Notes under the pieces: model-generated
Told to the model about the DNA's origin: nothing
What the model saw: the letters and a program-made list of their open reading frames with translations, nothing else
Databases searched by the model: none
DNA from: a virus
Taxonomy: Duplodnaviria > Caudoviricetes
DNA length: 55,322 nucleotides
Reading direction: 5' to 3' (one strand)
IMG/VR virus record: IMGVR_UViG_3300004225_000001
Coordinates: 1-55,322 of that record
Position numbers and translations under genes: made by a program
Part shown: piece by piece, positions 548 to 11,132 of the stretch
Position numbering within the stretch: position 1 is the first letter of the stretch
How the letters are laid out: each line of letters opens with the position of its first letter

Positions 548-3500
548 TCAATTGAGCTTCATGTTCAGCTCATGCTGCAGCTTGCGCTTTTTGTCCTGCT
601 CGATGGCGGTCAAGCGCTGGAACTCTTCTTGACCAATGCGGCCGGTCTGCAGCTGGCGCTTGTACTGGCTGATGTTCTTGTCGATCTCCATCTTCTCGGC
701 GCCGAACTTGCCCATGAGGTTCCTGCGCATCACGTCGGGCGGATAGCTGCCCAGCTTCACGCCGAATGATGAGGCCACCGCCTGAGCGGTTGACATTTCC
801 CGGCCAAAGGCGTCGGTACGCCCGGTCAGCGAACCAACGACCCCCGTGGTTGCATAGGTCCCAGGCACGCCAAGCACATTCGGCGCGGCGGCTTTGTACA
901 TGTGATCCAGGAATTTCTCGGCCTTTTGCCGCGCGGTGTCGGTCCCTAGCGTGATTGGCTTTCCGGTGAAGGCGCTCTTGTTCAGTGCAACCTCGGCCAT
1001 CACCGCCAGCGGGCCGCCAGGCTGCAGGCCGGGCAGAATTGGGATGGCCGACTGGCCCTGCCCAATGTCAAATACGTCGCCTACAGGAATGAACCGGCGA
1101 ATGTCCAGATACACAGGGCTGTTGTGACCGTCGTTCCATGGCATGCGGATCAATTTCGGAACCATCCCCCAGACGTTGCCGGCTTTCTCTTCCGGCAACA
1201 GCTTGCGCTCATCTTCGTCGCCGCCGCCCGCGCCAGCAAGCATCACCCCCAGAGCATTGAGCCCACCGGCCAGCGCCATCAGCTTGAGCAGCTTGTGGGG
1301 CTTGCGCGCAACGGTTTCAAGCAGCATTGGCACGGCGCGGTATGTGAAGGACAGGAACGGCCAGGCCGACTTGCGCATGGCATTGATCCACGGCGCATTG
1401 ATGTTGTAGTCGAGGAATGATGCTTTCGCGCGCTTGCCAGCGTCCAGATCCGTCGCGCCCTGCTCTTTCGCGGCCAGCCAGGCGCCAAGGCGGAACACGT
1501 CGTCTTCGGCCTGGTAGGCATCGAGCAGCGCACCGCCTGCAACTTTCACCGCTTTGCCAGGAAGGCTGACAGCCGCTGCATCAAACGCCGCCGGGAAGCG
1601 CAGATGCAGCGCGTGCTGAAGCGCAGCAAAAACGCCGGTCTGGGTTTCCGCATTTCCGCCATTGGTGGCCGCCATCTCGCGTTCCAACGACGCCAGCAGC
1701 GGCTCGATCTGGTCGCGCGAGATCTCATTCGTCACCCAGGATCCCGAATCGCCACCGCTGTCGGAATAGCGGTTGAGGATCTCGCGCGCCGCGTCTCGGT
1801 CCGCAATGCCGCCACGCTTATCGCTGGCCGCTAGCATGATGCGCAGCGCTTTGGAGACATGGGCGGCGTGCACCTCGTGCCAGTCGGCCATCACGAAGTT
1901 CGACATGACGTTGTTCATGTGCACCGCAGGGCTCAGCGCGGTTTTGCTGGTCTTCCACAGATTCAGCACCTTGTTGTACGTGTCGCCGAACGGCTGGAAC
2001 CCACCGCCGGCCATTTGGCGCAGATCGTTCCACACCGGGCCCTCAACGTAGCGCCCGGCCAGCTTGCCGTACTTGAGCACATTGGTGCCGGCGATCTTGC
2101 TGTCGGGCACGCGCACCCATTCGCCAGGCGCGAAGGTGTCGCGGTACTTCTCCGAGGCGTCCACCACTTCGCCGGGGATGGCTTCGCCCTCCTTCTTTGC
2201 ATGGTTGATGGCCAGCCAGTCCAGATAGCGCCCGACTTCCACGTCGTGGATCATGGCGTGCAGGGTTTTTGCGATGGCGAAACGCGCCTCGTCAATCTCC
2301 CCCATTTGCTCGCGCTCGTCCTTGGTGAAGTCGCGCCACAGCACCGCATTGGGGCCCTTCACATCGCGCACTTCCCAGGTTCCTGCCTGCGTCCAGTCGG
2401 CGTATTTGGCAGGCAGGCGCTCGCTGGCGGGCCAGTAGGCCAGCTCCAGCACGCGGCCCGGTTGCCTGCCGGTCATGCCGGGAAGTGGCGTCGTGCCGGT
2501 GCCGGATGGAGCGCGGCGCTCCAGGCGAAGCAGCTGCTCTCCCTTGAGTGCGGCATCAGCCTTTCCCTTGGCAAGCTTGCGCTGCCACCAGTCGGGAGCC
2601 GCGCTTTTGATGGCGGACATGGCGGCCGTCTCGCTCAGGCCGCGCCCCTTGTACTGCTCGCCCAGCACAGCGATGGTGCGCGCGCGCTTGGCCTTTTGCC
2701 CCTTGGTCTGCTCCAGCGTGTGCTTGGCGTAGCTGCGGCGCAGATAGGCAAATCGGTTGCGCTTGAAGGCCTCCGGGTCGAGTTGGCCCAGGCGCACGGC
2801 GTCCTTGGAAAGGCGGTCGATCATCTCCTGCACTTCTTGCAGCACGGCCACCGATTCCTCGGGCAGCCCTTGCATCATGGAGACGTAGGCCTGCGGGTCT
2901 GCCCCGTCCATGTTCATCCACTCGTAGGCCACGCGGCTCTCGGCGCGGGTCAGCGTGGCGAGCTTCTCGATCAGTGAGCCGGCCTTGCGCAGCTGCACGC
3001 GCTGGCGCCCCTGCAGCATGGTGCGCTGGTCCTTCACCGCCTCGGGCAGGCCGTAGTCGGACATCACGCCCGCCTTGACCTTCTCGGGCACGACGGCATC
3101 CAGTAGGCTCGCCGCTTTGTCGTAGATCGCGCCAGTGAGGCGCTCCACGCCAGTGCCGCGGGTCAGGCCTTGGGCAATAGCGTCGAGCGGCCGCACACCG
3201 CCGGTGCGGTCTTGGATGATGGCCTCGGCGCGCGTGGCAGCATCCTGCGCAGGCGCGGCGCGCGACAGGCGGATGTCTGGATTGGTGGGGTCGAAGGTGC
3301 CGCGGTTGCCGGTGGCGCTCTTGATCTGCTCGGGGCGAAACACGATCCAGGTGTCGCCGCCTTCCATCCCGCGAATCACATAGGCGTCATGGCCCGCGCG
3401 CCGCGCTTCGGCCGGCGTCAGCTTGCCATTGCGCTCAAGACCGACCTGCCAGTCGTCATCCTGAATCTCATAGGGGTGGGTCGCGGTCAGATACGCCGGA

Positions 3501-6500
3501 ATAACGTTGCCACCATCGTCCCCGGTGTTGGCGTAGTCGCTGGCAAATCGAGGATTCGTGGTGAAGTATTGGCCCTGCTGATCTTCCGGCACAAGCGAAT
3601 CGCGGAAAGTGGAGAAGTCGTAGGTCGTCCCGTGGTACACCACCAGCGGCTTGCCAACGGCATCCACCACCTTGCTGTCGCCAAACCAGCGCTTGAACGC
3701 CGCGCTTTCCGTCTGATCGCCAGCCATCCCCCGCGAAAGCATCGCCTCCCCGGGCCGCTGAATTCCAAGCCGCTTCGCCACCAGCTCGTACACCTTGGGA
3801 TTGCGAGCAGCCAGATCCTCGGCGTCGCGGTAGCCGCGCTCCCTGGCCTCGGTCTGCAGGCGTTTTTCCTGGCGCGCCTGGTCGTCGGCCAGCGCGGCAG
3901 ATAGGCGCGTGCCGGCCGCTTTGGCGCCGTCGCTTGCCCCCGCCTTGCCGGCCATGTATGCGCGCGCGCCGCGCACCAGGTCAGCGACGAACAGGTCGGC
4001 GCGCTGCTGCTCGCTCAACGTGCCGTCGAGCCAGGTGCTCAGCTTGGCGGCCATGGCGGTGAAACCGTGCTCGGCCAGCCAGTCGCGCGCCAGCGCCGTG
4101 ACCTTGCGCCAGCCCTTGAGCTGCGCAAGCTGGGCGCTTGGAATGTCCACAATGACCTCCTCCACAGCCTCGGCGTTGGTCAGCTTGCCGCGCTTTTGCA
4201 GCGCCGTGGCTGCCTTGCGCACGGCGCCGTTGTTGGCGTAAATCAGGCTCATGGCCTGGGTTTTCGCGTCGCCCAGGATGGCGTGCAGCCCGAAGTGCGC
4301 AGCTTCGTGTTCGGCCAATACGTGCTCGGCGCGCAGCGCGTCGGGCAGGCCGCTGGCGAACAGGTAGAACTCGCCCTCGTGCATGGCGCCGTCCACGTCG
4401 TTCCATGCACCCTGCTCTTCGATGTAGTCGCGCAGTCCCTCGGGCGCCAGCGTCGGATCGGCGAGCACATGCACCTTGGGCATGCGTGGGTTCTTGGCGG
4501 CGATGCGGTCGGCCAGGGCCTGCAATTCGGCCACGGGCATGCCGGCGGGTTCGCCATCGCCGCGGCTGAGTGGGCCTAGCTCCGTCTTGGCTAGAATCTG
4601 TCCGCGCCTCTGTTCTCCGGGCAAGCCAGTCAATCGCGGCTGGAACGATCCGGAGGCAGGGGCGCCCTTGTTTTCGTCGCCATTTGGCGGTTCACTGCGG
4701 CTCAGGCGGATGTCTGGGTTGGCGGTGTCGAAGGTGCCTCGGTTGCCGGTGGCGCTCTTGAGCTGGTGCTTGTTGCGCAATGCCAGCGAAATTCCGGCTT
4801 CGTCTTCAACATAGACGGAATCTGCTGATGGGTTGTCTCGCAGGGCCTTGGCGACGTCCAAAAAGTGGACGGGCGTGTCGGGGCTGTTCAAGGGGCTTTC
4901 GGCCCTGGCGAACAGCTCCATGGTTTTGCCGCTGCTGAGCGCGGCCACGCGCGCCCCCGTCTGGCTGAACGCGACGAAGATTGGTTTGTCGTCGCGGAAG
5001 GTGGAGAAGTCTGATTTCGTTTCGTGGTACACCACCGCCGGCTCGCCGGTGTCAGGGTCCACCACCTTGGAGACACTTTCAGCGGCTACCTCGGGGTCTT
5101 CGGCCTGCACGGCTTCCCAGTCGCCAAACCAACTCCTGAATGCCGGCGTGCGCACCTGTACCCACTGCTCATAGGTGAGCTTCGTTTCGCCTGACGCCTC
5201 GGCCTTCTCGTAGACGTCGCGCCCACCCTCATTTTCGATGCCGCCCTCGCTGTTTTGCGGGAAATGCTTGTTCAGCACCCGCTCAGCCGCAGCGCGGGCA
5301 TTGGCCGTCAGCTGGCGCTGCCACGCGCCTGCGTTCGGCGACCACTTGAACCCGTTGGCTTTCAAGTCGCTCCGGACGGCTTCGCCAGGCTTCTCGTCGA
5401 AGAACAGGCGCAGCCTATCGTCTTGGGCGTTTTCCTCGGTGCGCACGCCTTGGCGAGCGGTTGCTACGGGGCCTGCAGCAGCTTCCGCCACGCGCTGCTC
5501 GGCCTGCGCCAAGCGCTCACGCAGCCGGCGAATCTCGGCATTGTTGTTGGCCAGCTTGTAATCCGCATAGCCCCGGCGTCCGGCAAAATCGGGCTTCTTG
5601 AGCTCGGCGATCAGCGCCGGCGAGTAGCCAAGCGCCACCAGGGGCTCGTCGTCCTTTTTGCGCAGGGCGGCGTTCACGGCTTTCATGCGCTCCTGCGTGG
5701 CCTCACGCTCTTCCAGGTTGGCGCGGATGCGCGCCACCTCGGAGTCCGGGCTGTTGTCGATCGGGCCACGGGCCGCCTTTGCCATGCGGGCAATGCCCTT
5801 GCGCAGAAATTCGCTGGCCTCCTGGGCGCGCTTGTCGGCAGTTTCCGACTTCTTGCGGTTCGCCTCCGCGGGGAAGCGCGCGGGCCCAGCGATCATTGAG
5901 GACATCACCCGTGCACTCGCGCCCAGCGCCTCCAGGTAGCGCGACCGGTAACCCTCGACCACATCGCCCAGAACCTCCACCGCGCGCGCACGCGCCGCGG
6001 CGTCATCGCCGAGCGCGGCCTCGGTCCGTTTCCAGGCATCGACCAGGGCCCGCACATAGTTTCGCCGTGCGCTGGCGCCGCGCTGCTCGGGGCTGTGAGA
6101 AGTGCCAGAGTAGGCCTGCGTTGCGGCATCGCGTGGAATATCCGATTCCCGCACCGGAACCGGCATGGCAGCAGCGAATTCGCGCAGAGCCTCGTATTGC
6201 CCATCATGGATCGCCTGAGTCAGGCCGTCGGCACGCATGAACGAGCCAGGCTCCATCGCGTCCAGCGCTTGCCGGCCCAATTCCGCAACAATGGCGTCGC
6301 GCGCCTGCTCGCGCAGCGCGGCCACGTCACCATCAGGCTGGGCCTTGGCGATGTCTGTGGCAATTTGTGTTGCCGTGCGCACTACGCCGGCTGGTTCAGG
6401 CTCGCTATTTTTGGCGTCCGCGCGTAAAATCGAAGCCGGAGGTGTCCCGATGAAAGTGCCCGATAAATTCCCGCCCGGCTGCGAATTCGTGGCGTCATTC

Positions 6501-9500
6501 AGCGGAGACGAGTTCGTTAAATTCCCCGACGGCAAGGTTTTCAGGCTCGACGACAACGGCTCCGATTTGTTGCCCGCCAAGTCGCTCCCCGCCAAGTCGC
6601 TCCCCGCCAGATCCGCAGCGCCAATTTCCGAAGCCGTTTTCTTGAGCTGCGCACGCGGCTGCCGCGAATTTTCCGCCACCGGCAAGGTCAACTTGTTCCC
6701 GGCCGCAGCAAACGCGGCATCGTAGAACTCGCGCATCGCGTCGCCGATTTCTTTGTACGCGGCCGACGCCTCGGGCTGCACCCGCTGCGCCTCATACAAT
6801 TTGTGCCCCTGGGCATCCTTTGCCGCCAGCATTTGCGGCACATTGATCTGGATCTCCGCCGCCACTCCGTCAGGCAGCACCACATTCAGTAGCACGTCGG
6901 CATAGCCATCGATCCGGGCATCCTCAGAAATGCGGGTCTTGACGCGCGCCACGCTACCAAACACCTTCACGACAGCATCAACCACGGCCTGCACGTCGCC
7001 GTAGCTGCTCACCACCACCGTGGCGCGCAGCAAATCGCGCATCCTCTCAGGGCTGAAATCTGCGCCGTCCGGGTCGACGTACTTTTCGACGGCCCGGTCC
7101 ATATTCTTGACGGACGCGACGATCTGGCCCAGGGCGCCGGACTGCTGCGCCACAGCAGCAACATTCTTGGCGAAGCCCTGAAAAGCGCCCAAGGCTGCAT
7201 CGAGCAGGGGCTTTAGCTCCGCTTTTGCGCGCGCACGGTCCTTGGGCGACACGACCATGGGCCGCGGCTGCTTGGAGTATTTCTCGATGTAGCCATTTGC
7301 TCGCGCGATCAACTCAGCGGGCAGAAAGGTTTTCGCCGACGGAGGCCGGTAGTTGTCACGGTCGCGGTCGTAGGCCTTGCTCTCGATCTTCGATACAGCG
7401 GACGTAGCCTCAGTGGCCTTGGCAGGGCTGTTAAACAGATCGCCCTGAACGGCGCTTGCAGCCTCTCCGATATCGCCAAAAAGTCCATGCTGCGCCGGGT
7501 TCGCCATACCGTCCAGTGCCTGCAGCGCTGCCTTCTGGTAGAGCTCCGGGCTGATCTTGTTCCAGAAGGTTTTAAAACGCGGGTCGGCCTTGATCTGCTC
7601 GCGCACCCACTTGGTCGCCCGCTTCATGTCGGTGCCCACCAGCCGGATGGCAGCGTCGAACAGCTTGGCCAGCGTGGGCATCAGGTCGGGGGTCTTCTCG
7701 GGAACCATGGCGGCGCGCGTGTGCTTGCTGGCAATCTGCGCCAGATCACCCAGGGCGTCCTTGAAGTCCTGCACGGCGGCAGCGCGCTGACCCACCGGGG
7801 TTTTGTCGCCTTCACTTTGCTGCACGCTAGGGAACTCACGCACGGCATCGAGCAGCTCACGGATCGGCGCATCCAGACGGATCACGGGGACACTCTCGCC
7901 AAGCGCCTTCATCGCCATCCACTGGTGGTGGCCGTCCAGCACATGGCCGTCAGACGACACCAGCACAGACCGCTCGCCGATCGACCCGGTCTTCATGAAC
8001 CGTTCGGTCTTTTCGCGCGAAAACTCCGCTTGCGTCGGTTTGAGGCTGGACGCCGGCACCTCGTCCTTGGTGCTGCTAATACCGCGCGCGTTTAGGAAGT
8101 TGACCAGGGCGCCGCGGTGCTCACCTTTGACTTGCGGCATGTCGCTCCGGGGAATACCCAGCGTGCCGGAATCCTCGGGGAAGTGGACCCATTCGCCTAC
8201 TTCGTCGTTTGCGGCTTCGCGCGCTGGTTTTCCAGGCTGTCGTCCTGCGGCATCGGCTTGGGTAGGCCCATTGCCTTGATCGCGGCCTTCACTGCGCGGC
8301 GCATCTTGGGGTTGCCCTCCATCGCGCGCATCAGCTTGTGCACCTTCTCCAGCGACTCCCCGCTGGGGGTCTTGGTCAGCATTGCCATTCTGGGTTTCCT
8401 TTGCGGTATTGATCAGGCTGGCGCGCGTGGGCGCTGGCCCATCGTCGCCAAACATGGATGGCTGGGTCGGGTCGCCAGCATGCTCCAGCGCATCGTAATA
8501 ACGCTGGAAGAACTCGGCAATGCGGCGCGGGCTGCGCGCGTTCTCGCTCAAGAATGTCAGCAGCTCGGCCGCCTCGGGGCTGTACTTGGGCCCGGTCAGA
8601 TCCGCCTGGCCCAGCTCGTCGGACACTTTCCAGCCCTTCTCCTTAAGCGCTGAGAGGCCTTCGACGGCAGCCAGCAGATCGGGGGCGATGTCGGCCTGGT
8701 GCAAGGTGCCAGCGTCCATGCGCTCGCGCGCGGCGGCGATGGTCGGCGCCACACGCACCAGCGCCTTGCTGATGTTGGCCAGGTTGTTGTCCATGCTCTC
8801 CGTCATGCGGCGCAGCGATGGAGAATCCCCGTAGGCGCGGGCCAGCACGGCATTCTGGATGCGGCGGTAGCCGGCGGTGGACAGGCGCCCGTCCGACTCG
8901 ATCAGGTCGCTCTGCTCGGTGACGGGCAGCGTGGCCATGAACTGGCGCACAAAGTCCATGTTGTTGCCAAAATCCCCTTGCTCGTCCGGGTTCAGGCCGT
9001 CGAGGGAATTGAGGCGCTTGGCGTCCGACAGCGCCTGCTCGCTCGGGCTCATGCGCTGCACGGTGCTGGCGTTGGCCTGGCGCGCGAACTCGGCGCGGTT
9101 CACCGGCGTGGCACGCACGCGCACCAGCACGGGCTTGGCCATGGCGTCGATGGCTTCGGGAGCCAGCCCAAACTGCGCCGCGTTGTCACGCAGGAACTGT
9201 TTGTAATTCTCGGCCTTCTGGCCGTTGGCCTGGTAGACGCGCTTGAGCGCAATGGTCCGCGCGTTGCCCGACTCCACCAATCCGTCCGCGCCCACGATAG
9301 GCGCGCCGTTGGCAGCATCCGCCGACAGGCCCAGGCGGGCCGGGTCAAGTCGCTGCACGATGCCCGAGACTTGCAATTCGCTGGCCTGGCGGCTGCGATC
9401 GCGCGGCTGCAATTCCTTGGGGAAAAGCGGATTGACTGCCAGCCCCTCGTCGTGCGACGTCACCAGATCGCCCGCGTCCATCAGCGCGTACTGCGCCTCC

Positions 9501-11101
9501 AGGCGTGCGCCGGCTTCGGTGGTGAACGAGGACATGGCGCCGCGCTCGGCCTTGGGCCAGGTCGAGGCGATGCTCTCTCGCTCAGCGGCCAGCTCGGCGG
9601 CCTTGGTGGCCAGGTCTTGGCGCTCGCCATCAAAGGCGGGCCCGTAGCCGTTCTCTGGCGCCAGTTCCTGCTGGCGCTCAGTGATGGCCTGCAGCTCGCC
9701 GCCCAGCGCATCGGCGCGGTCCAGCGCGGTCAGTTGCACCGGGGTTTTCAGCGCTTCCTCGGCGGCGGCGGTGTCGCCTACCCCAACGGCTTCCAGGCCG
9801 GCCGATCCTCTTCCCGCCACGACTCCTGCGGCTGCTCCTGAATTGGTAGCTGCTTGCGCTTGTCCTGAAAGCGCTGGCGCCTGATTTTGCTGGTTTTCTG
9901 CTGGCGTTTGGTTTTGGACATTGCTCCCCCTAAAGTTGTCTCGCGCATAGCCCAAGCCATGCCCGCCGGAGCCCATGGCGAAGCCAGCGGCCAGGTTCTG
10001 GGCCGCAGAGCCGCCCGGGTCGTATTGCTGCGAAGGGTCTGCCTGCACCGAGGCGCCGTACTGCACGGCATCTTCTGGCACGCCCTGGAATCCCTCTTCC
10101 ACGGTATCTTGTGCAACGCGCTTGCCGAACTCGCGAATTCCCATACGCTCGACGCCGGCGATGGTCTTGGCCGTCGCGTCGCCGCCAAAGAGTTTGTTGG
10201 TCAGCACGGTGCCCAGCGCAGTCCCTGCGCCCGCCAGCAGCGGAACTTGGTCTGCCAACTCATTGGCCAATATCTCGCGCGCCTTGGCCGGGTCTCCTTG
10301 GGTTTCTGCCAGCACAGCCTGGAACCGAGGCGACTTGGCCAGCATTTCCAGCGGCATTTCATTGACTTGCTGGTACACGCCCTGGCGTGACTGCAGGGCC
10401 GACGACGACGCCTCAGACAGCGCTCCAGCGGTACTCACCCGCCCCAGGCTGGCGCCCGCGCGGTGCACCACAGAACCAACCCCGACGCCAGCTGCCATAT
10501 CGGGAGCGGATCGGGCCATGGTGTGCGCGAAAGCCAGTGGGTTGTCCTTGATGGCCGCCAGGTTGTCGACAAACCCCTGTGCTTCTGCGGTGTTCTGCTG
10601 CTGAGCGATCAGCTCGGGGTTGTTGGCTTTGTCGGACGCCAGGATCTCTGCCTTTGCGCGCTCGGAGTCGCGCTGGAGCATGCGGCCAAAACGGGCCGGG
10701 AGGTTGCTCGGGTCCGCTACCTGCGCATCGCGCGACTCCGCAGCAAAGCGAGAGGCCAGCCGGGCATTTTCCTGGACGGCCTCGTTTTCCTTGGCGATGT
10801 CTTTGCCGCTGATGGCGTTGGCGGCCCAGGTGATGCCGCGATCTGCTGCAGCCGCTGCGCCAGACACGCCGGCGAGTGCGTTCGCCGCAGGATCCTGAAT
10901 GAATGTTCCGATGCCGCCAGCAATGCCTGCGACGCCCTGCGCAAGGCCAGAATCTATGGCGTGCAAGTAATCTGCGGCCGTCGCCTGGCTTTTGCGTTTC
11001 TTGCGCTCGTTGACGATCGGGTCATCCGCCCACCACGCATCGCCGTCCTGCGCGTCCTCGCCAGAGGCAATAGGATCCTGTTCCCACCATTTTTCGGCCA
11101 T
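548..11101 (-). CDS. Giant polyvalent internal virion/ejection protein (~3517 aa): DdrB-ParB, ParB-like, RelA/SpoT-like, DUF3560-like, 2x ART-PolyVal-like and HExxH peptidase domains
   Basis: Motifs LQPRDR...GAPIV...VESGNARTIAL; LKPTQ...VLDGHHQW; VK..R..EK / RDLLRATVVV / GYADVLLNV / AEIQI; GFKWSP..GAWQRQLT; twice F..WFGD..VVYH..KSATGNRGTFD; HEAAH. Last gene of the virion module. Start placed at MAEKWW (an alternative ATG lies at 11125). Confidence 0.9.
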   Translation of the reverse strand: MAEKWWEQDPIASGEDAQDGDAWWADDPIVNERKKRKSQATAADYLHAIDSGLAQGVAGIAGGIGTFIQDPAANALAGVSGAAAAADRGITWAANAISGKDIAKENEAVQENARLASRFAAESRDAQVADPSNLPARFGRMLQRDSERAKAEILASDKANNPELIAQQQNTAEAQGFVDNLAAIKDNPLAFAHTMARSAPDMAAGVGVGSVVHRAGASLGRVSTAGALSEASSSALQSRQGVYQQVNEMPLEMLAKSPRFQAVLAETQGDPAKAREILANELADQVPLLAGAGTALGTVLTNKLFGGDATAKTIAGVERMGIREFGKRVAQDTVEEGFQGVPEDAVQYGASVQADPSQQYDPGGSAAQNLAAGFAMGSGGHGLGYARDNFRGSNVQNQTPAENQQNQAPALSGQAQAATNSGAAAGVVAGRGSAGLEAVGVGDTAAAEEALKTPVQLTALDRADALGGELQAITERQQELAPENGYGPAFDGERQDLATKAAELAAERESIASTWPKAERGAMSSFTTEAGARLEAQYALMDAGDLVTSHDEGLAVNPLFPKELQPRDRSRQASELQVSGIVQRLDPARLGLSADAANGAPIVGADGLVESGNARTIALKRVYQANGQKAENYKQFLRDNAAQFGLAPEAIDAMAKPVLVRVRATPVNRAEFARQANASTVQRMSPSEQALSDAKRLNSLDGLNPDEQGDFGNNMDFVRQFMATLPVTEQSDLIESDGRLSTAGYRRIQNAVLARAYGDSPSLRRMTESMDNNLANISKALVRVAPTIAAARERMDAGTLHQADIAPDLLAAVEGLSALKEKGWKVSDELGQADLTGPKYSPEAAELLTFLSENARSPRRIAEFFQRYYDALEHAGDPTQPSMFGDDGPAPTRASLINTAKETQNGNADQDPQRGVAGEGAQADARDGGQPQDAPRSEGRDQGNGPTQADAAGRQPGKPAREAANDEVGEWVHFPEDSGTLGIPRSDMPQVKGEHRGALVNFLNARGISSTKDEVPASSLKPTQAEFSREKTERFMKTGSIGERSVLVSSDGHVLDGHHQWMAMKALGESVPVIRLDAPIRELLDAVREFPSVQQSEGDKTPVGQRAAAVQDFKDALGDLAQIASKHTRAAMVPEKTPDLMPTLAKLFDAAIRLVGTDMKRATKWVREQIKADPRFKTFWNKISPELYQKAALQALDGMANPAQHGLFGDIGEAASAVQGDLFNSPAKATEATSAVSKIESKAYDRDRDNYRPPSAKTFLPAELIARANGYIEKYSKQPRPMVVSPKDRARAKAELKPLLDAALGAFQGFAKNVAAVAQQSGALGQIVASVKNMDRAVEKYVDPDGADFSPERMRDLLRATVVVSSYGDVQAVVDAVVKVFGSVARVKTRISEDARIDGYADVLLNVVLPDGVAAEIQINVPQMLAAKDAQGHKLYEAQRVQPEASAAYKEIGDAMREFYDAAFAAAGNKLTLPVAENSRQPRAQLKKTASEIGAADLAGSDLAGSDLAGNKSEPLSSSLKTLPSGNLTNSSPLNDATNSQPGGNLSGTFIGTPPASILRADAKNSEPEPAGVVRTATQIATDIAKAQPDGDVAALREQARDAIVAELGRQALDAMEPGSFMRADGLTQAIHDGQYEALREFAAAMPVPVRESDIPRDAATQAYSGTSHSPEQRGASARRNYVRALVDAWKRTEAALGDDAAARARAVEVLGDVVEGYRSRYLEALGASARVMSSMIAGPARFPAEANRKKSETADKRAQEASEFLRKGIARMAKAARGPIDNSPDSEVARIRANLEEREATQERMKAVNAALRKKDDEPLVALGYSPALIAELKKPDFAGRRGYADYKLANNNAEIRRLRERLAQAEQRVAEAAAGPVATARQGVRTEENAQDDRLRLFFDEKPGEAVRSDLKANGFKWSPNAGAWQRQLTANARAAAERVLNKHFPQNSEGGIENEGGRDVYEKAEASGETKLTYEQWVQVRTPAFRSWFGDWEAVQAEDPEVAAESVSKVVDPDTGEPAVVYHETKSDFSTFRDDKPIFVAFSQTGARVAALSSGKTMELFARAESPLNSPDTPVHFLDVAKALRDNPSADSVYVEDEAGISLALRNKHQLKSATGNRGTFDTANPDIRLSRSEPPNGDENKGAPASGSFQPRLTGLPGEQRRGQILAKTELGPLSRGDGEPAGMPVAELQALADRIAAKNPRMPKVHVLADPTLAPEGLRDYIEEQGAWNDVDGAMHEGEFYLFASGLPDALRAEHVLAEHEAAHFGLHAILGDAKTQAMSLIYANNGAVRKAATALQKRGKLTNAEAVEEVIVDIPSAQLAQLKGWRKVTALARDWLAEHGFTAMAAKLSTWLDGTLSEQQRADLFVADLVRGARAYMAGKAGASDGAKAAGTRLSAALADDQARQEKRLQTEARERGYRDAEDLAARNPKVYELVAKRLGIQRPGEAMLSRGMAGDQTESAAFKRWFGDSKVVDAVGKPLVVYHGTTYDFSTFRDSLVPEDQQGQYFTTNPRFASDYANTGDDGGNVIPAYLTATHPYEIQDDDWQVGLERNGKLTPAEARRAGHDAYVIRGMEGGDTWIVFRPEQIKSATGNRGTFDPTNPDIRLSRAAPAQDAATRAEAIIQDRTGGVRPLDAIAQGLTRGTGVERLTGAIYDKAASLLDAVVPEKVKAGVMSDYGLPEAVKDQRTMLQGRQRVQLRKAGSLIEKLATLTRAESRVAYEWMNMDGADPQAYVSMMQGLPEESVAVLQEVQEMIDRLSKDAVRLGQLDPEAFKRNRFAYLRRSYAKHTLEQTKGQKAKRARTIAVLGEQYKGRGLSETAAMSAIKSAAPDWWQRKLAKGKADAALKGEQLLRLERRAPSGTGTTPLPGMTGRQPGRVLELAYWPASERLPAKYADWTQAGTWEVRDVKGPNAVLWRDFTKDEREQMGEIDEARFAIAKTLHAMIHDVEVGRYLDWLAINHAKKEGEAIPGEVVDASEKYRDTFAPGEWVRVPDSKIAGTNVLKYGKLAGRYVEGPVWNDLRQMAGGGFQPFGDTYNKVLNLWKTSKTALSPAVHMNNVMSNFVMADWHEVHAAHVSKALRIMLAASDKRGGIADRDAAREILNRYSDSGGDSGSWVTNEISRDQIEPLLASLEREMAATNGGNAETQTGVFAALQHALHLRFPAAFDAAAVSLPGKAVKVAGGALLDAYQAEDDVFRLGAWLAAKEQGATDLDAGKRAKASFLDYNINAPWINAMRKSAWPFLSFTYRAVPMLLETVARKPHKLLKLMALAGGLNALGVMLAGAGGGDEDERKLLPEEKAGNVWGMVPKLIRMPWNDGHNSPVYLDIRRFIPVGDVFDIGQGQSAIPILPGLQPGGPLAVMAEVALNKSAFTGKPITLGTDTARQKAEKFLDHMYKAAAPNVLGVPGTYATTGVVGSLTGRTDAFGREMSTAQAVASSFGVKLGSYPPDVMRRNLMGKFGAEKMEIDKNISQYKRQLQTGRIGQEEFQRLTAIEQDKKRKLQHELNMKLN
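3266..3324. repeat. 59-bp direct repeat, copy A (end of second ART-like domain)
   Basis: 55/59 identical to 4703-4761 by manual alignment; encodes KSATGNRGTFD..NPDIRL. Confidence 0.9.
4604..4674 (+). ncRNA. Candidate antisense hairpin sRNA nested in the giant gene
   Basis: TAGAAT at 4592-4597; three stacked stems 4604-4612/4657-4665, 4615-4620/4650-4655, 4626-4631/4638-4643 with G-U pairs that only form on the + strand; followed by CTTGTTTT. Confidence 0.4.
4703..4761. repeat. 59-bp direct repeat, copy B (end of first ART-like domain)
   Basis: 55/59 identical to 3266-3324. Confidence 0.9.
6450..6725 (+). CDS. Nested antisense gene (91 aa); candidate immunity protein/antitoxin for the RelA/SpoT-like domain
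   Basis: TAAAAT at 6425-6430, GGAGGTG RBS at 6438-6444, ATG at 6450; globular-looking MKVPDKFPPGCEFVASFSGDEFVKFPDGKVFRLDD; the opposite host frame is a Ser/Asn-rich linker. Confidence 0.65.
   Translation: MKVPDKFPPGCEFVASFSGDEFVKFPDGKVFRLDDNGSDLLPAKSLPAKSLPARSAAPISEAVFLSCARGCREFSATGKVNLFPAAANAAS
6573..6613. repeat. 15-bp tandem repeat (2 full copies plus 1 partial) in the dual-coding region
   Basis: CCCGCCAAGTCGCTC twice plus CCCGCCAGATC; reads DLAGS in the giant protein and LPAKS in the antisense ORF. Confidence 0.9.
8197..8388 (-). CDS. Overprinted same-strand, alternate-frame gene (63 aa, basic helical protein)
   Basis: AAGGA RBS 8 nt before the ATG; amphipathic SLEKVHKLMRAM...MRRAVKAAIKAMGL; coincides with the low-complexity linker after the DdrB-ParB domain. 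Confidence 0.55.
   Translation of the reverse strand: MAMLTKTPSGESLEKVHKLMRAMEGNPKMRRAVKAAIKAMGLPKPMPQDDSLENQRAKPQTTK
9833..9888. repeat. Dispersed REP-like hairpin element, copy 1 (inside coding sequence)
   Basis: TAGC-N4-tgCGCTT-N7-AAGCGCT-ggcgcctgATTT aligns with 44873-44927 and 51163-51216. Confidence 0.7.
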
Positions 11102-11132
11102 GCAAACCCCCGGATTCAAGTGCATGGGACAT

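What the first reader, a model, noticed from the sequence alone, without database searches (positions are those of the whole stretch)
8197..8402. Overprinted 63-aa gene in an alternate frame between the two ParB-type domains
Seen: AAGGA-8 nt-ATG and an ORF whose limits coincide with the linker (host frame QNGNADQDPQRGVAGEGAQADARDGG...). The alternate frame reads as two clean amphipathic helices, whereas the host frame looks like a frame-shifted shadow. Inference: a translated partner or inhibitor of the DdrB-ParB domain made from the same late mRNA.
Basis: partly seen in the sequence, partly recalled or inferred. Interest (0 to 1): 0.7.

Follow-up and report, generated by a model that had tools for sequence, protein, structure and literature searches.

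The report
Hidden small gene inside giant phage gene
A 63-codon gene written in a second reading frame inside the flexible spacer of a giant injected-protein gene of an uncultured phage is real and conserved, and it encodes a small two-helix protein that ordinary gene finders miss.

Summary
It lies in the +1 frame of a 3525-aa polyvalent protein gene, over the spacer between a ddrB-ParB module and a second ParB/Srx-fold domain.

ORF length alone means little. The gene holds 12 same-strand alternate-frame ORFs of 63 aa or more, and a hydrophilic spacer is open in +1 automatically. The rest is far beyond chance.
- Codon-position GC flips to the alternate frame (.58/.42/.91; host GC3 .43).
- The ORF recurs in 35 distinct related loci: 34 start with ATG, 28 have a Shine-Dalgarno motif.
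- In 7 independent close pairs, 34 changes are silent in the small gene and change the host, against 5 of the opposite kind (p=4e-7).
- The wobble position moves from the host frame to the alternate frame exactly here.
- The host frame also stays open in 25 of 25 loci (mean chance about 0.2 each).

So both frames are kept, and this is a true embedded gene. It follows the ddrB-ParB module even where the second domain is absent. The product is a basic helical hairpin with weak, sub-threshold likeness to a single HEAT repeat. Translation and the partner or inhibitor role remain untested. This scan found the same layout before on other DNA.

The parts
8197..8388 (-). Embedded small gene: 63 codons plus the TAG stop, in the +1 frame of the giant gene. 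Product P0002 is basic (13 K+R, 6 D+E) and has no Cys.
   Evidence: Conserved in 35 distinct loci. Selection acts on this frame.
8397..8401 (-). Shine-Dalgarno-like AAGGA, 8 nt before the ATG
   Evidence: AGGA, GGAG or GAGG at -16..-4 in 28 of 35 distinct loci, against a background of 0.109.
8413..8415 (-). TGA in the small gene's frame, 8 codons before its ATG. It closes that frame upstream.
   Evidence: An in-frame stop lies within 15 codons upstream in 27 of 35 loci.
8254..8379 (-). Conserved core of the small protein (residues about 4-45): an N-terminal LPKTPSGE-type motif, two helices, and a GLP motif at the end
   Evidence: Alignments. AlphaFold2 helices at 13-24 and 27-40. All 3 changes here against L170/L171 are silent in this frame.
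8197..8253 (-). Variable C-terminal tail of the small protein. Its stop TAG is formed by the host Val codon GTA plus the G of the next codon.
   Evidence: Tail changes against L170: 3 of 6 are silent in the host and none is silent in the small frame.
548..11125 (-). Host gene: 3525-aa polyvalent protein (ddrB-ParB, ART-PolyVal and other modules). Residues about 913-977 are a Gly/Asp/Gln/Ala/Arg-rich spacer.
   Evidence: The frame is kept open across the overlap in 25 of 25 loci and in 33 of 33 spanning loci.
8396..9556 (-). ddrB-ParB module with its C-terminal extension (host residues 524-910). The Pfam ddrB-ParB core is residues 539-671, which is 9113..9511. The small gene follows the end of this module.
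7778..8197 (-). Second domain with a ParB/sulfiredoxin fold (host residues 977-1116)
   Evidence: (no Pfam match)

Best explanation
This is a genuine embedded (overprinted) protein-coding gene.

On the mRNA of the giant virion-delivered polyvalent protein, ribosomes that bind a conserved Shine-Dalgarno site start at the ATG at 8388, in the +1 frame. They make a basic protein of about 50-65 residues: a conserved N-terminal motif, a two-helix hairpin, and a proline-rich variable tail. Ribosomes already reading the giant gene pass through the same bases and read them as a flexible hydrophilic spacer.

Selection acts on the amino acids of the small protein and only keeps the giant frame free of stops. 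These steps are shown by comparative evidence. Initiation itself is inferred.

The small gene is inherited together with the ddrB-ParB module that ends just before it. I therefore infer, with about 35% confidence, that its product works with that module in the producing cell, as a holder, assembly helper or inhibitor of the predicted NTP-regulated DNase. The confidence figure given for this explanation (0.85) is for the claim that it is a real, translated embedded gene, not for the function.
For: 1. Composition. Codon-position GC in the ORF fits the alternate frame (.58/.42/.91). Host GC3 falls to .43, against .78 gene-wide.

2. Recurrence.
- A profile of the peptide hits 29 of 160 fetched loci, always on the same strand and in +1. 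That is 28 of the 33 loci that span the spacer and 1 of the 127 others.
- 20 of 20 loci found with the peptide itself have it embedded in a host ORF open for 917 or more codons.

3. Start signals. In 35 distinct loci there are 34 ATG starts and 1 GTG start. A Shine-Dalgarno motif is present in 28 of 35, against a background of .109.

4. Selection.
- Core amino-acid identity is 47% in the alternate frame and 32% in the host frame. The alternate frame is higher in 246 of 253 pairs. pN/pS is .76 against 1.17.
- In 7 independent close pairs, 34 changes are silent in the small gene and change the host, 5 are the reverse, and 22 change both. The expected share of the first kind among the first two is .48; binomial p=4e-7.
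- Differences by alternate-frame codon position 1/2/3 are 17/7/37 in the core. In the upstream module they are 51/29/205 by host codon position.

5. The host frame is also kept. It is open in 25 of 25 loci, although random synonymous recoding of the small gene leaves it open with mean probability .20.

6. Fold. pLDDT 78, two helices.

7. Linkage. The ORF starts +20 to +125 nt after the end of the module, or +476 nt in one locus, in 29 of 61 ddrB-module loci. Among those at least 55% identical with enough downstream sequence it is 27 of 32. Seven of the hits lack a ParB-2 motif downstream. In L133 the domain order is swapped and the ORF stays with the ddrB module.
Against: - There is no direct evidence of translation.
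- The divergent pairs are saturated, so the alternate-frame pN/pS is only .76.
- Some close relatives lack the ORF: 5 of 32 close ddrB-module loci. L021/L213 has a short spacer without it, and L016/L210 carries only a divergent version seen by eye.
- It is absent from the 15 distant modules whose host ORF ends 78-156 residues after the module. It is also absent from 50,697 cultured phage records by tblastn with the single peptide.
- No known family, solved structure or Atlas cluster explains the protein.
- The functional link rests only on gene linkage.
- Loci are related to each other, so counts over loci are not fully independent.
Confidence: 0.85

Rival explanations
1. The gene is real, but its job has nothing to do with the ddrB-ParB module. 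It could be a small nucleic-acid-binding or anti-defence protein, or a virion assembly factor, that sits in the one place in the giant gene where a second frame can be tolerated.
For: The protein is strongly basic (13 K+R against 6 D+E). No interaction was established. Spacers are the permissive places for overprinting (established knowledge on overprinted viral genes; PMC3494269 seen only as a search listing and abstract).
Against: The ORF stays at the 3' end of the ddrB-ParB module when the domain order is swapped and when the downstream domain differs. It was not found in the 127 loci that hold only the second ParB-fold domain, apart from L133.
Confidence: 0.4
2. It is a product of programmed frameshifting. 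Ribosomes slip from the host frame into +1 and end at the TAG, giving a truncated N-terminal isoform whose tail is the helical hairpin.
For: The alternate frame is open far upstream in a minority of loci, for example L007, L012, L083, L172/L173 and L177.
Against: An in-frame stop lies within 15 codons upstream of the start in 27 of 35 loci. ATG is kept in 34 of 35 and a Shine-Dalgarno motif in 28 of 35. The bases before the start otherwise vary, and no shared slippery run is visible.
Confidence: 0.04
3. It is a by-product. A hydrophilic low-complexity spacer is open in +1 automatically, and the conservation reflects selection on the composition of the spacer.
For: +1 stops need T at host codon position 2, which hydrophilic spacers lack. 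There are 12 other same-strand alternate ORFs of 63 aa or more in the gene.
Against: Selection on the host protein would leave host third positions free. Instead they are the most conserved positions (7 of 61 differences). Host-silent changes are rare (5 against 34). The ATG and Shine-Dalgarno motif are conserved. The alternate peptide is more conserved than the host peptide in 246 of 253 pairs.
Confidence: 0.03
4. The conservation is at the nucleic-acid level: an RNA structure, an internal promoter or a recombination handle inside the gene.
For: None specific. The first-stage notes propose recombination handles elsewhere in this gene (unchecked).
Against: The variation has a three-base period in the alternate frame (17/7/37), which is the mark of coding. 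No promoter-like or terminator-like site was found in 7800-9000.
Confidence: 0.03

Closest known systems
Rz/Rz1 two-component spanin genes of phage lambda (embedded architecture)
   Same: A small phage gene lies wholly inside a larger one, on the same strand and in the +1 frame, with its own start. Gene callers routinely miss it (PMC6139136, passages read).
   Different: Rz1 is an outer-membrane lipoprotein of the lysis cassette. This product has no Cys and so no lipobox. It lies in a structural-module gene, inside the spacer of a polyvalent protein, and its partner is unproven.
Hepatitis B virus polymerase spacer overlapped by the surface-protein gene
   Same: The same principle: a structured protein is written over the disordered spacer of a large multidomain protein, and the spacer frame is the weakly constrained one.
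   Different: That is an animal virus with a different protein and different biology. I recalled it from my own knowledge, prompted by the earlier scan note e1-3599676, and read no paper on it here.
HEAT-like repeat (Pfam HEAT_2, PF13646)
   Same: A helix-turn-helix hairpin of about 40 residues aligns to one repeat of the profile (profile positions about 26-65). 9 of 35 family members give a weak match, best E 6.9e-4.
   Different: In the five individual hits inspected scores are 15.8-18.3 bits, against a cut-off of 27.7. There is a single unit, not an array. The window's own peptide gives no HEAT match.
Polyvalent proteins of phages and conjugative elements (Iyer et al. 2017, PMC5512222)
   Same: The host gene is one of these: ddrB-ParB and ART-PolyVal domains in a late-gene context. 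The paper predicts that DdrB-like ParB domains are NTP-regulated DNases (passages read).
   Different: The main text of the paper has 0 occurrences of 'overlap', 'linker' or 'alternate frame'. It describes no genes nested in the spacers. Its supplementary files could not be seen.

Membership tests
Embedded (overprinted) same-strand protein-coding gene | The alternate-frame ORF is kept open in diverged relatives | tested here: met
   28 of 33 spanning loci, 20 of 20 loci found with the peptide, 35 distinct versions
Embedded (overprinted) same-strand protein-coding gene | It has its own conserved start codon and ribosome-binding site | tested here: met
   ATG in 34 of 35 and GTG in 1 of 35. Shine-Dalgarno motif in 28 of 35, against a background of .109.
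Embedded (overprinted) same-strand protein-coding gene | Purifying selection acts on the alternate-frame protein (wobble period in that frame) | tested here: met
   34 against 5 changes, p=4e-7. 17/7/37 by alternate-frame position, against 51/29/205 by host position in the flank.
Embedded (overprinted) same-strand protein-coding gene | The host frame is also maintained | tested here: met
   Open in 25 of 25 loci against a mean chance of .20. Both flanks are in one open frame in 33 of 33 loci.
Embedded (overprinted) same-strand protein-coding gene | The protein product is detected | not testable with these tools
   Only contigs of an RNA library cover the stretch. They show neither translation nor a separate transcript.
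Pfam HEAT_2 (PF13646) | The score reaches the curated cut-off of 27.7 bits | tested here: not met
   15.8-18.3 bits in the 5 of 10 members that matched. The window peptide gives no match.
o-spanin (Rz1-like) | A lipoprotein signal with a lipobox Cys | tested here: not met
   P0002 has no Cys
Cognate partner or inhibitor of the ddrB-ParB module (immunity-like) | Strict genomic linkage to the module | tested here: met
   The ORF follows the end of the module in 27 of 32 close loci. It does so regardless of the downstream domain and when the order is swapped.
Cognate partner or inhibitor of the ddrB-ParB module (immunity-like) | Physical binding to the module, or an effect on its activity | not testable with these tools
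   This needs co-purification or an enzyme assay. See Tried and rejected for the one computation attempted.
Programmed ribosomal frameshift product | The alternate frame is open from a conserved slip site, with no need for its own start | tested here: not met
   An in-frame stop lies within 15 codons upstream in 27 of 35 loci. The conserved elements are the Shine-Dalgarno motif and the ATG.

The most novel reading that the evidence does not exclude
The spacers of phage polyvalent proteins may carry a systematic hidden layer of small genes, each inherited with one enzymatic module. This one would be a new family: a single HEAT-like hairpin protein that acts as the dedicated keeper of the DdrB-type ParB NTPase/DNase. 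It would hold the enzyme inactive or chaperone it in the cell that builds the virion, and would be left behind when the giant protein is injected. That would make it an immunity-like partner written inside the weapon's own gene.
Probability: 0.25. Interest if true: 0.85.

Novelty: new member of a known kind. Interest (0 to 1): 0.7.

Why it matters
Gene finders forbid long same-strand overlaps, so this family is almost invisible. A search of 1.84 billion representative proteins gave only 13 hits. One of these is a spurious repeat protein and one is a 5692-aa protein with no aligned stretch. The 10 small-protein hits that I looked up all come from contigs of 557-1947 nt, where the giant ORF is cut off, and none has a usable name.

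The result shows three things.
- The 'floppy linkers' of giant injected phage proteins can be real genes in another frame.
- The sequence conservation seen in such a linker can belong to the other frame.
- A small protein is co-inherited with a ParB-type enzyme whose role in early infection is still unknown.

The case also gives a clean natural example, with many diverged copies, for studying how two frames share one stretch of DNA. Together with the earlier notes of this scan on other DNA, it points to a general and unannotated feature of polyvalent protein genes.

Tried and rejected
Compensated double frameshift. The idea was that the alternate peptide is the normal host sequence in relatives. 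blastp of P0002 against the 120 listed homologues gave nothing better than E 0.074. Rejected.

Known family for the small protein. None was found.
- Pfam and PHROGs on P0002: 0 families.
- Per-member scans of the 35-row alignment: only weak HEAT_2 (9 of 35) and Nif11 (2 of 35) matches, and no PHROG with more than 2 members.
- PDB sequence profile: only designed helical proteins and noise.
- Foldseek against PDB: no match at E<=0.001.
- ESM Atlas: no usable hit.

Free-standing copies.
- All 20 loci found with the peptide have it embedded.
- In a sample of 401 genomes of the order of G001, 4 had a match. L183 is embedded again. L184 is a weak in-frame likeness inside a 365-codon ORF, which I take as chance.
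- tblastn of P0002 against cultured phage records: no match.

Complex prediction. The ddrB-ParB module alignment A4 with the small-protein alignment A2 gave 'no answer': score 0.00 against a mark of 0.32, and the controls were not run. This is evidence neither way.

Sequencing runs.
- Four DNA runs may be the source sample.
- X5, X7, X13 (DNA) and X15 (an RNA library, kept as contigs) carry a variant of the L170 type.
- Contigs of the RNA library cover 7987-8882 in pieces. DNA can be present in such libraries, and contigs show no starts or ends. This gives no evidence on expression or a separate transcript.

Other checks.
- No promoter-like or terminator-like site in 7800-9000.
- A single-protein scan of viral contigs found nothing. 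An alignment was needed.

Literature. I found no report of genes nested in polyvalent-protein spacers in six full-text searches or in the main text of PMC5512222. Supplementary files of PMC5512222 and PMC6139136 are closed and may hold architectures or tables that I could not see.
Full report
WHAT IS THERE. The window is a virus record. The minus strand from 548 to 11125 carries one ORF of 3525 codons. Pfam finds ddrB-ParB at residues 539-671 and ART-PolyVal at residues 2488-2611. Upstream, in the same direction, lie genes matching terminase, portal, major head protein and an internal virion protein. The gene is therefore a phage polyvalent protein in the sense of Iyer et al. 2017 (PMC5512222, passages read), at the end of the structural block.

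The reported ORF is exactly as described. AAGGA lies at 8401-8397, followed by 8 nt, ATG at 8388, 63 codons, and TAG at 8199-8197. It is in the +1 frame and covers host residues about 913-977. This is the gap between the end of the phrog_5143 match (residue 910) and the start of the phrog_11358 match (residue 966). The downstream domain has no Pfam match, but its AlphaFold2 model has a ParB/sulfiredoxin fold.

IS IT MORE THAN CHANCE? Length is not. The gene has 16 same-strand alternate-frame ATG ORFs of 50 aa or more, and 12 of them are 63 aa or more. A +1 stop needs T at the second position of a host codon, so a spacer without hydrophobic residues is open in +1 automatically. This ORF differs from the other 15 in two ways. 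It alone has a Shine-Dalgarno motif. It is also the only one of the 16 in which host-frame GC3 falls well below alternate-frame GC3.58/.42/.91 in the alternate frame, with host third positions at .43 against .78 gene-wide.

RELATIVES. A search with host residues 780-1110 gave 1430 proteins at E<=0.001, of which 120 were listed. All 120 have both flanking anchors, and most show a recurring spacer motif in the host frame. None carries the alternate peptide in its own frame, so this is not a repaired frameshift.

DNA was obtained with an alignment of this region: 80 viral and 80 genomic loci. Thirty-three loci span the spacer. In all 33 the host frame runs open through it. In the +1 frame the same small protein appears, with consensus M..LPKTPSGE(S/T)(L/I)EK.R.L......NPKMRRA(V/I).AAIKAMGLP.P.P. 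The +2 frame is full of stops.

A profile of the peptide hits 29 of the 160 loci plus the window, always on the same strand and in +1. That is 28 of the 33 spanning loci and 1 of the other 127. Searching collections with the peptide itself gave 9 viral and 11 metagenomic loci. In all 20 it is embedded in a host ORF open for at least 917 codons within the locus.

Over 35 distinct versions:
- ATG starts 34 and GTG starts 1.
- AGGA, GGAG or GAGG lies at -16..-4 in 28, against a background of .109.
- A stop in the same frame lies within 15 codons upstream in 27.
- The stop codon is TAG in 22, TGA in 9 and TAA in 3; the 35th version (L133) runs off the end of its locus, so its stop is not seen.

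WHICH FRAME IS SELECTED? In the 32-codon core, mean pairwise identity is 47% for the small protein and 32% for the host spacer. The small protein is the more conserved in 246 of 253 pairs. pN/pS is .76 against 1.17. These pairs are saturated, so I also took 7 independent close pairs.
- 34 changes are silent in the small gene and change the host, 5 are the reverse, and 22 change both. The two single-frame classes have nearly equal opportunity (.48), which gives p=4e-7.
- Differences by codon position of the small gene are 17/7/37. In the ddrB-ParB module just upstream (6 pairs, 889 codons) they are 51/29/205 by host position. One pair was left out of this control because an insert makes its flank non-homologous. 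The wobble position therefore moves from the host frame to the small gene's frame exactly here.
- Against the nearest relatives (L170 and L171, 92-94% peptide identity), all 3 core changes are silent in the small gene and alter the host. In the C-terminal tail no change is silent in the small frame, and half of them (3 of 6 against L170) are silent in the host.

IS THE HOST FRAME STILL READ? Yes. I kept each small protein fixed and redrew its codons from local usage. The host frame then stays free of stops with a mean probability of .20 per locus. In reality it is open in 25 of 25 loci. The loci are related, so the product of these probabilities overstates the case. Spacer lengths differ widely among relatives, yet both flanks always share one frame. 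Both frames are maintained, so this is true dual coding.

WHAT GOES WITH WHAT. A scan with the ddrB-ParB module alone gave 61 loci.
- The small gene was found in 29, always in +1. It starts 20-125 nt after the end of the module, or 476 nt in one locus with an insert.
- Among loci at least 55% identical with enough downstream sequence, it is present in 27 of 32.
- Seven carriers have no ParB-2 motif (by a simple pattern) within 480 residues downstream.
- In L133 the second ParB-fold domain comes first, and the small gene still follows the ddrB-ParB module.
- It is missing from the 127 loci that hold only the second domain, except L133.
- It is missing from 15 distant modules whose ORF ends 78-156 residues after the module.
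- Natural exceptions exist. L021/L213 has a short spacer and no small gene. L016/L210 has only a divergent version seen by eye.

THE PROTEIN. It is basic (13 K+R, 6 D+E), has no Cys and is predicted as a helical hairpin (helices 13-24 and 27-40, pLDDT about 90 in the core, 78 overall). It has no family, solved relative or Atlas neighbour. Nine of 35 members give a weak match to one unit of Pfam HEAT_2. In the five individual hits inspected the scores are 15.8-18.3 bits against a cut-off of 27.7. This is a likeness, not membership.

In 1.84 billion representative proteins only 13 match. One is a spurious repeat protein and one is a 5692-aa protein with no aligned stretch. The 10 small-protein hits that I looked up all come from contigs of 557-1947 nt and carry no usable name. 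Relatives are rare in genomes: 4 of 401 sampled genomes of one order. Named carriers are Burkholderiales such as Limnobacter, Hydrogenophaga and Undibacterium.

HOW IT MOST LIKELY WORKS. Shown by comparison: a conserved start region, a conserved protein, and both frames kept. Inferred: internal initiation on the late mRNA of the giant gene gives a free small protein, while the giant protein reads the same bases as a spacer.

The function is inferred from linkage only: a partner of the ddrB-ParB module. Iyer et al. predict that module to be an NTP-regulated DNase delivered with the phage DNA. A holder, chaperone or inhibitor acting in the producing cell is my best guess, at about 35%. An unrelated small protein that simply uses the permissive spacer is about as likely.

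COMPARISON AND NOVELTY. The layout is that of lambda Rz1 inside Rz (PMC6139136). The principle is that of a structured gene written over a polymerase spacer in hepatitis B virus (recalled, not read). It is a new member of that known kind and a new protein family. Six literature searches and the polyvalent-protein paper gave no report of genes nested in these spacers. Supplements could not be read. This scan has noted the same layout on other DNA several times. Those notes are unchecked by me and do not share sequence with this ORF.

VERDICT. It is a real hidden gene with about 0.85 confidence, and its function is open.

Noticed in passing
window 9778-9921 (-): A second candidate +1-frame ORF lies in another low-GC3 spacer (host residues about 400-447). 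It has 47 codons, a K/R/Q-rich product, GGGGGAG 3 nt before the ATG, and GC by position .57/.43/.79. Similar peptides with the same ending occur in L002 and L083 but not clearly in the other loci looked at.
   Followed up: partly
window 7778-8197 (-): The domain after the spacer has no Pfam match even at E<=10. Its AlphaFold2 model (pLDDT 89.8) has a clear ParB/sulfiredoxin fold. It occurs widely without the small gene, including in F116-like Pseudomonas phage records.
   Followed up: yes
L021 and L213 (same viral contig); L016 and L210 (same viral contig): These are natural variants. One relative has a short 56-residue spacer and no small gene. Another has only a divergent version of about 34 codons. 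Both would be useful as natural knock-out comparisons.
   Followed up: partly
window 8197-8199 and the equivalent place in relatives: The small gene's stop is often built inside the conserved host Glu-Trp-Val motif of the next domain, or just before it. It uses the Val codon GTA, or GTG followed by A, so that TAG or TGA arises in +1. In the window it is GTA followed by G. TAG is the stop in 22 of 34 versions.
   Followed up: partly
L184 (G009:C12:105738-105866): A weak likeness to the small protein (E 7e-6 for one genome) lies in the main frame of a 365-codon ORF that continues into hydrophobic, membrane-like sequence. I take it as a chance resemblance.
   Followed up: partly
window 8306-8546: The table printed lists no variant in this stretch for any of the four laid runs, although variants lie on both sides. 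The stretch holds the start region and the N-terminal half of the small gene. 51 further differences were not shown, so this is only a hint.
   Followed up: no
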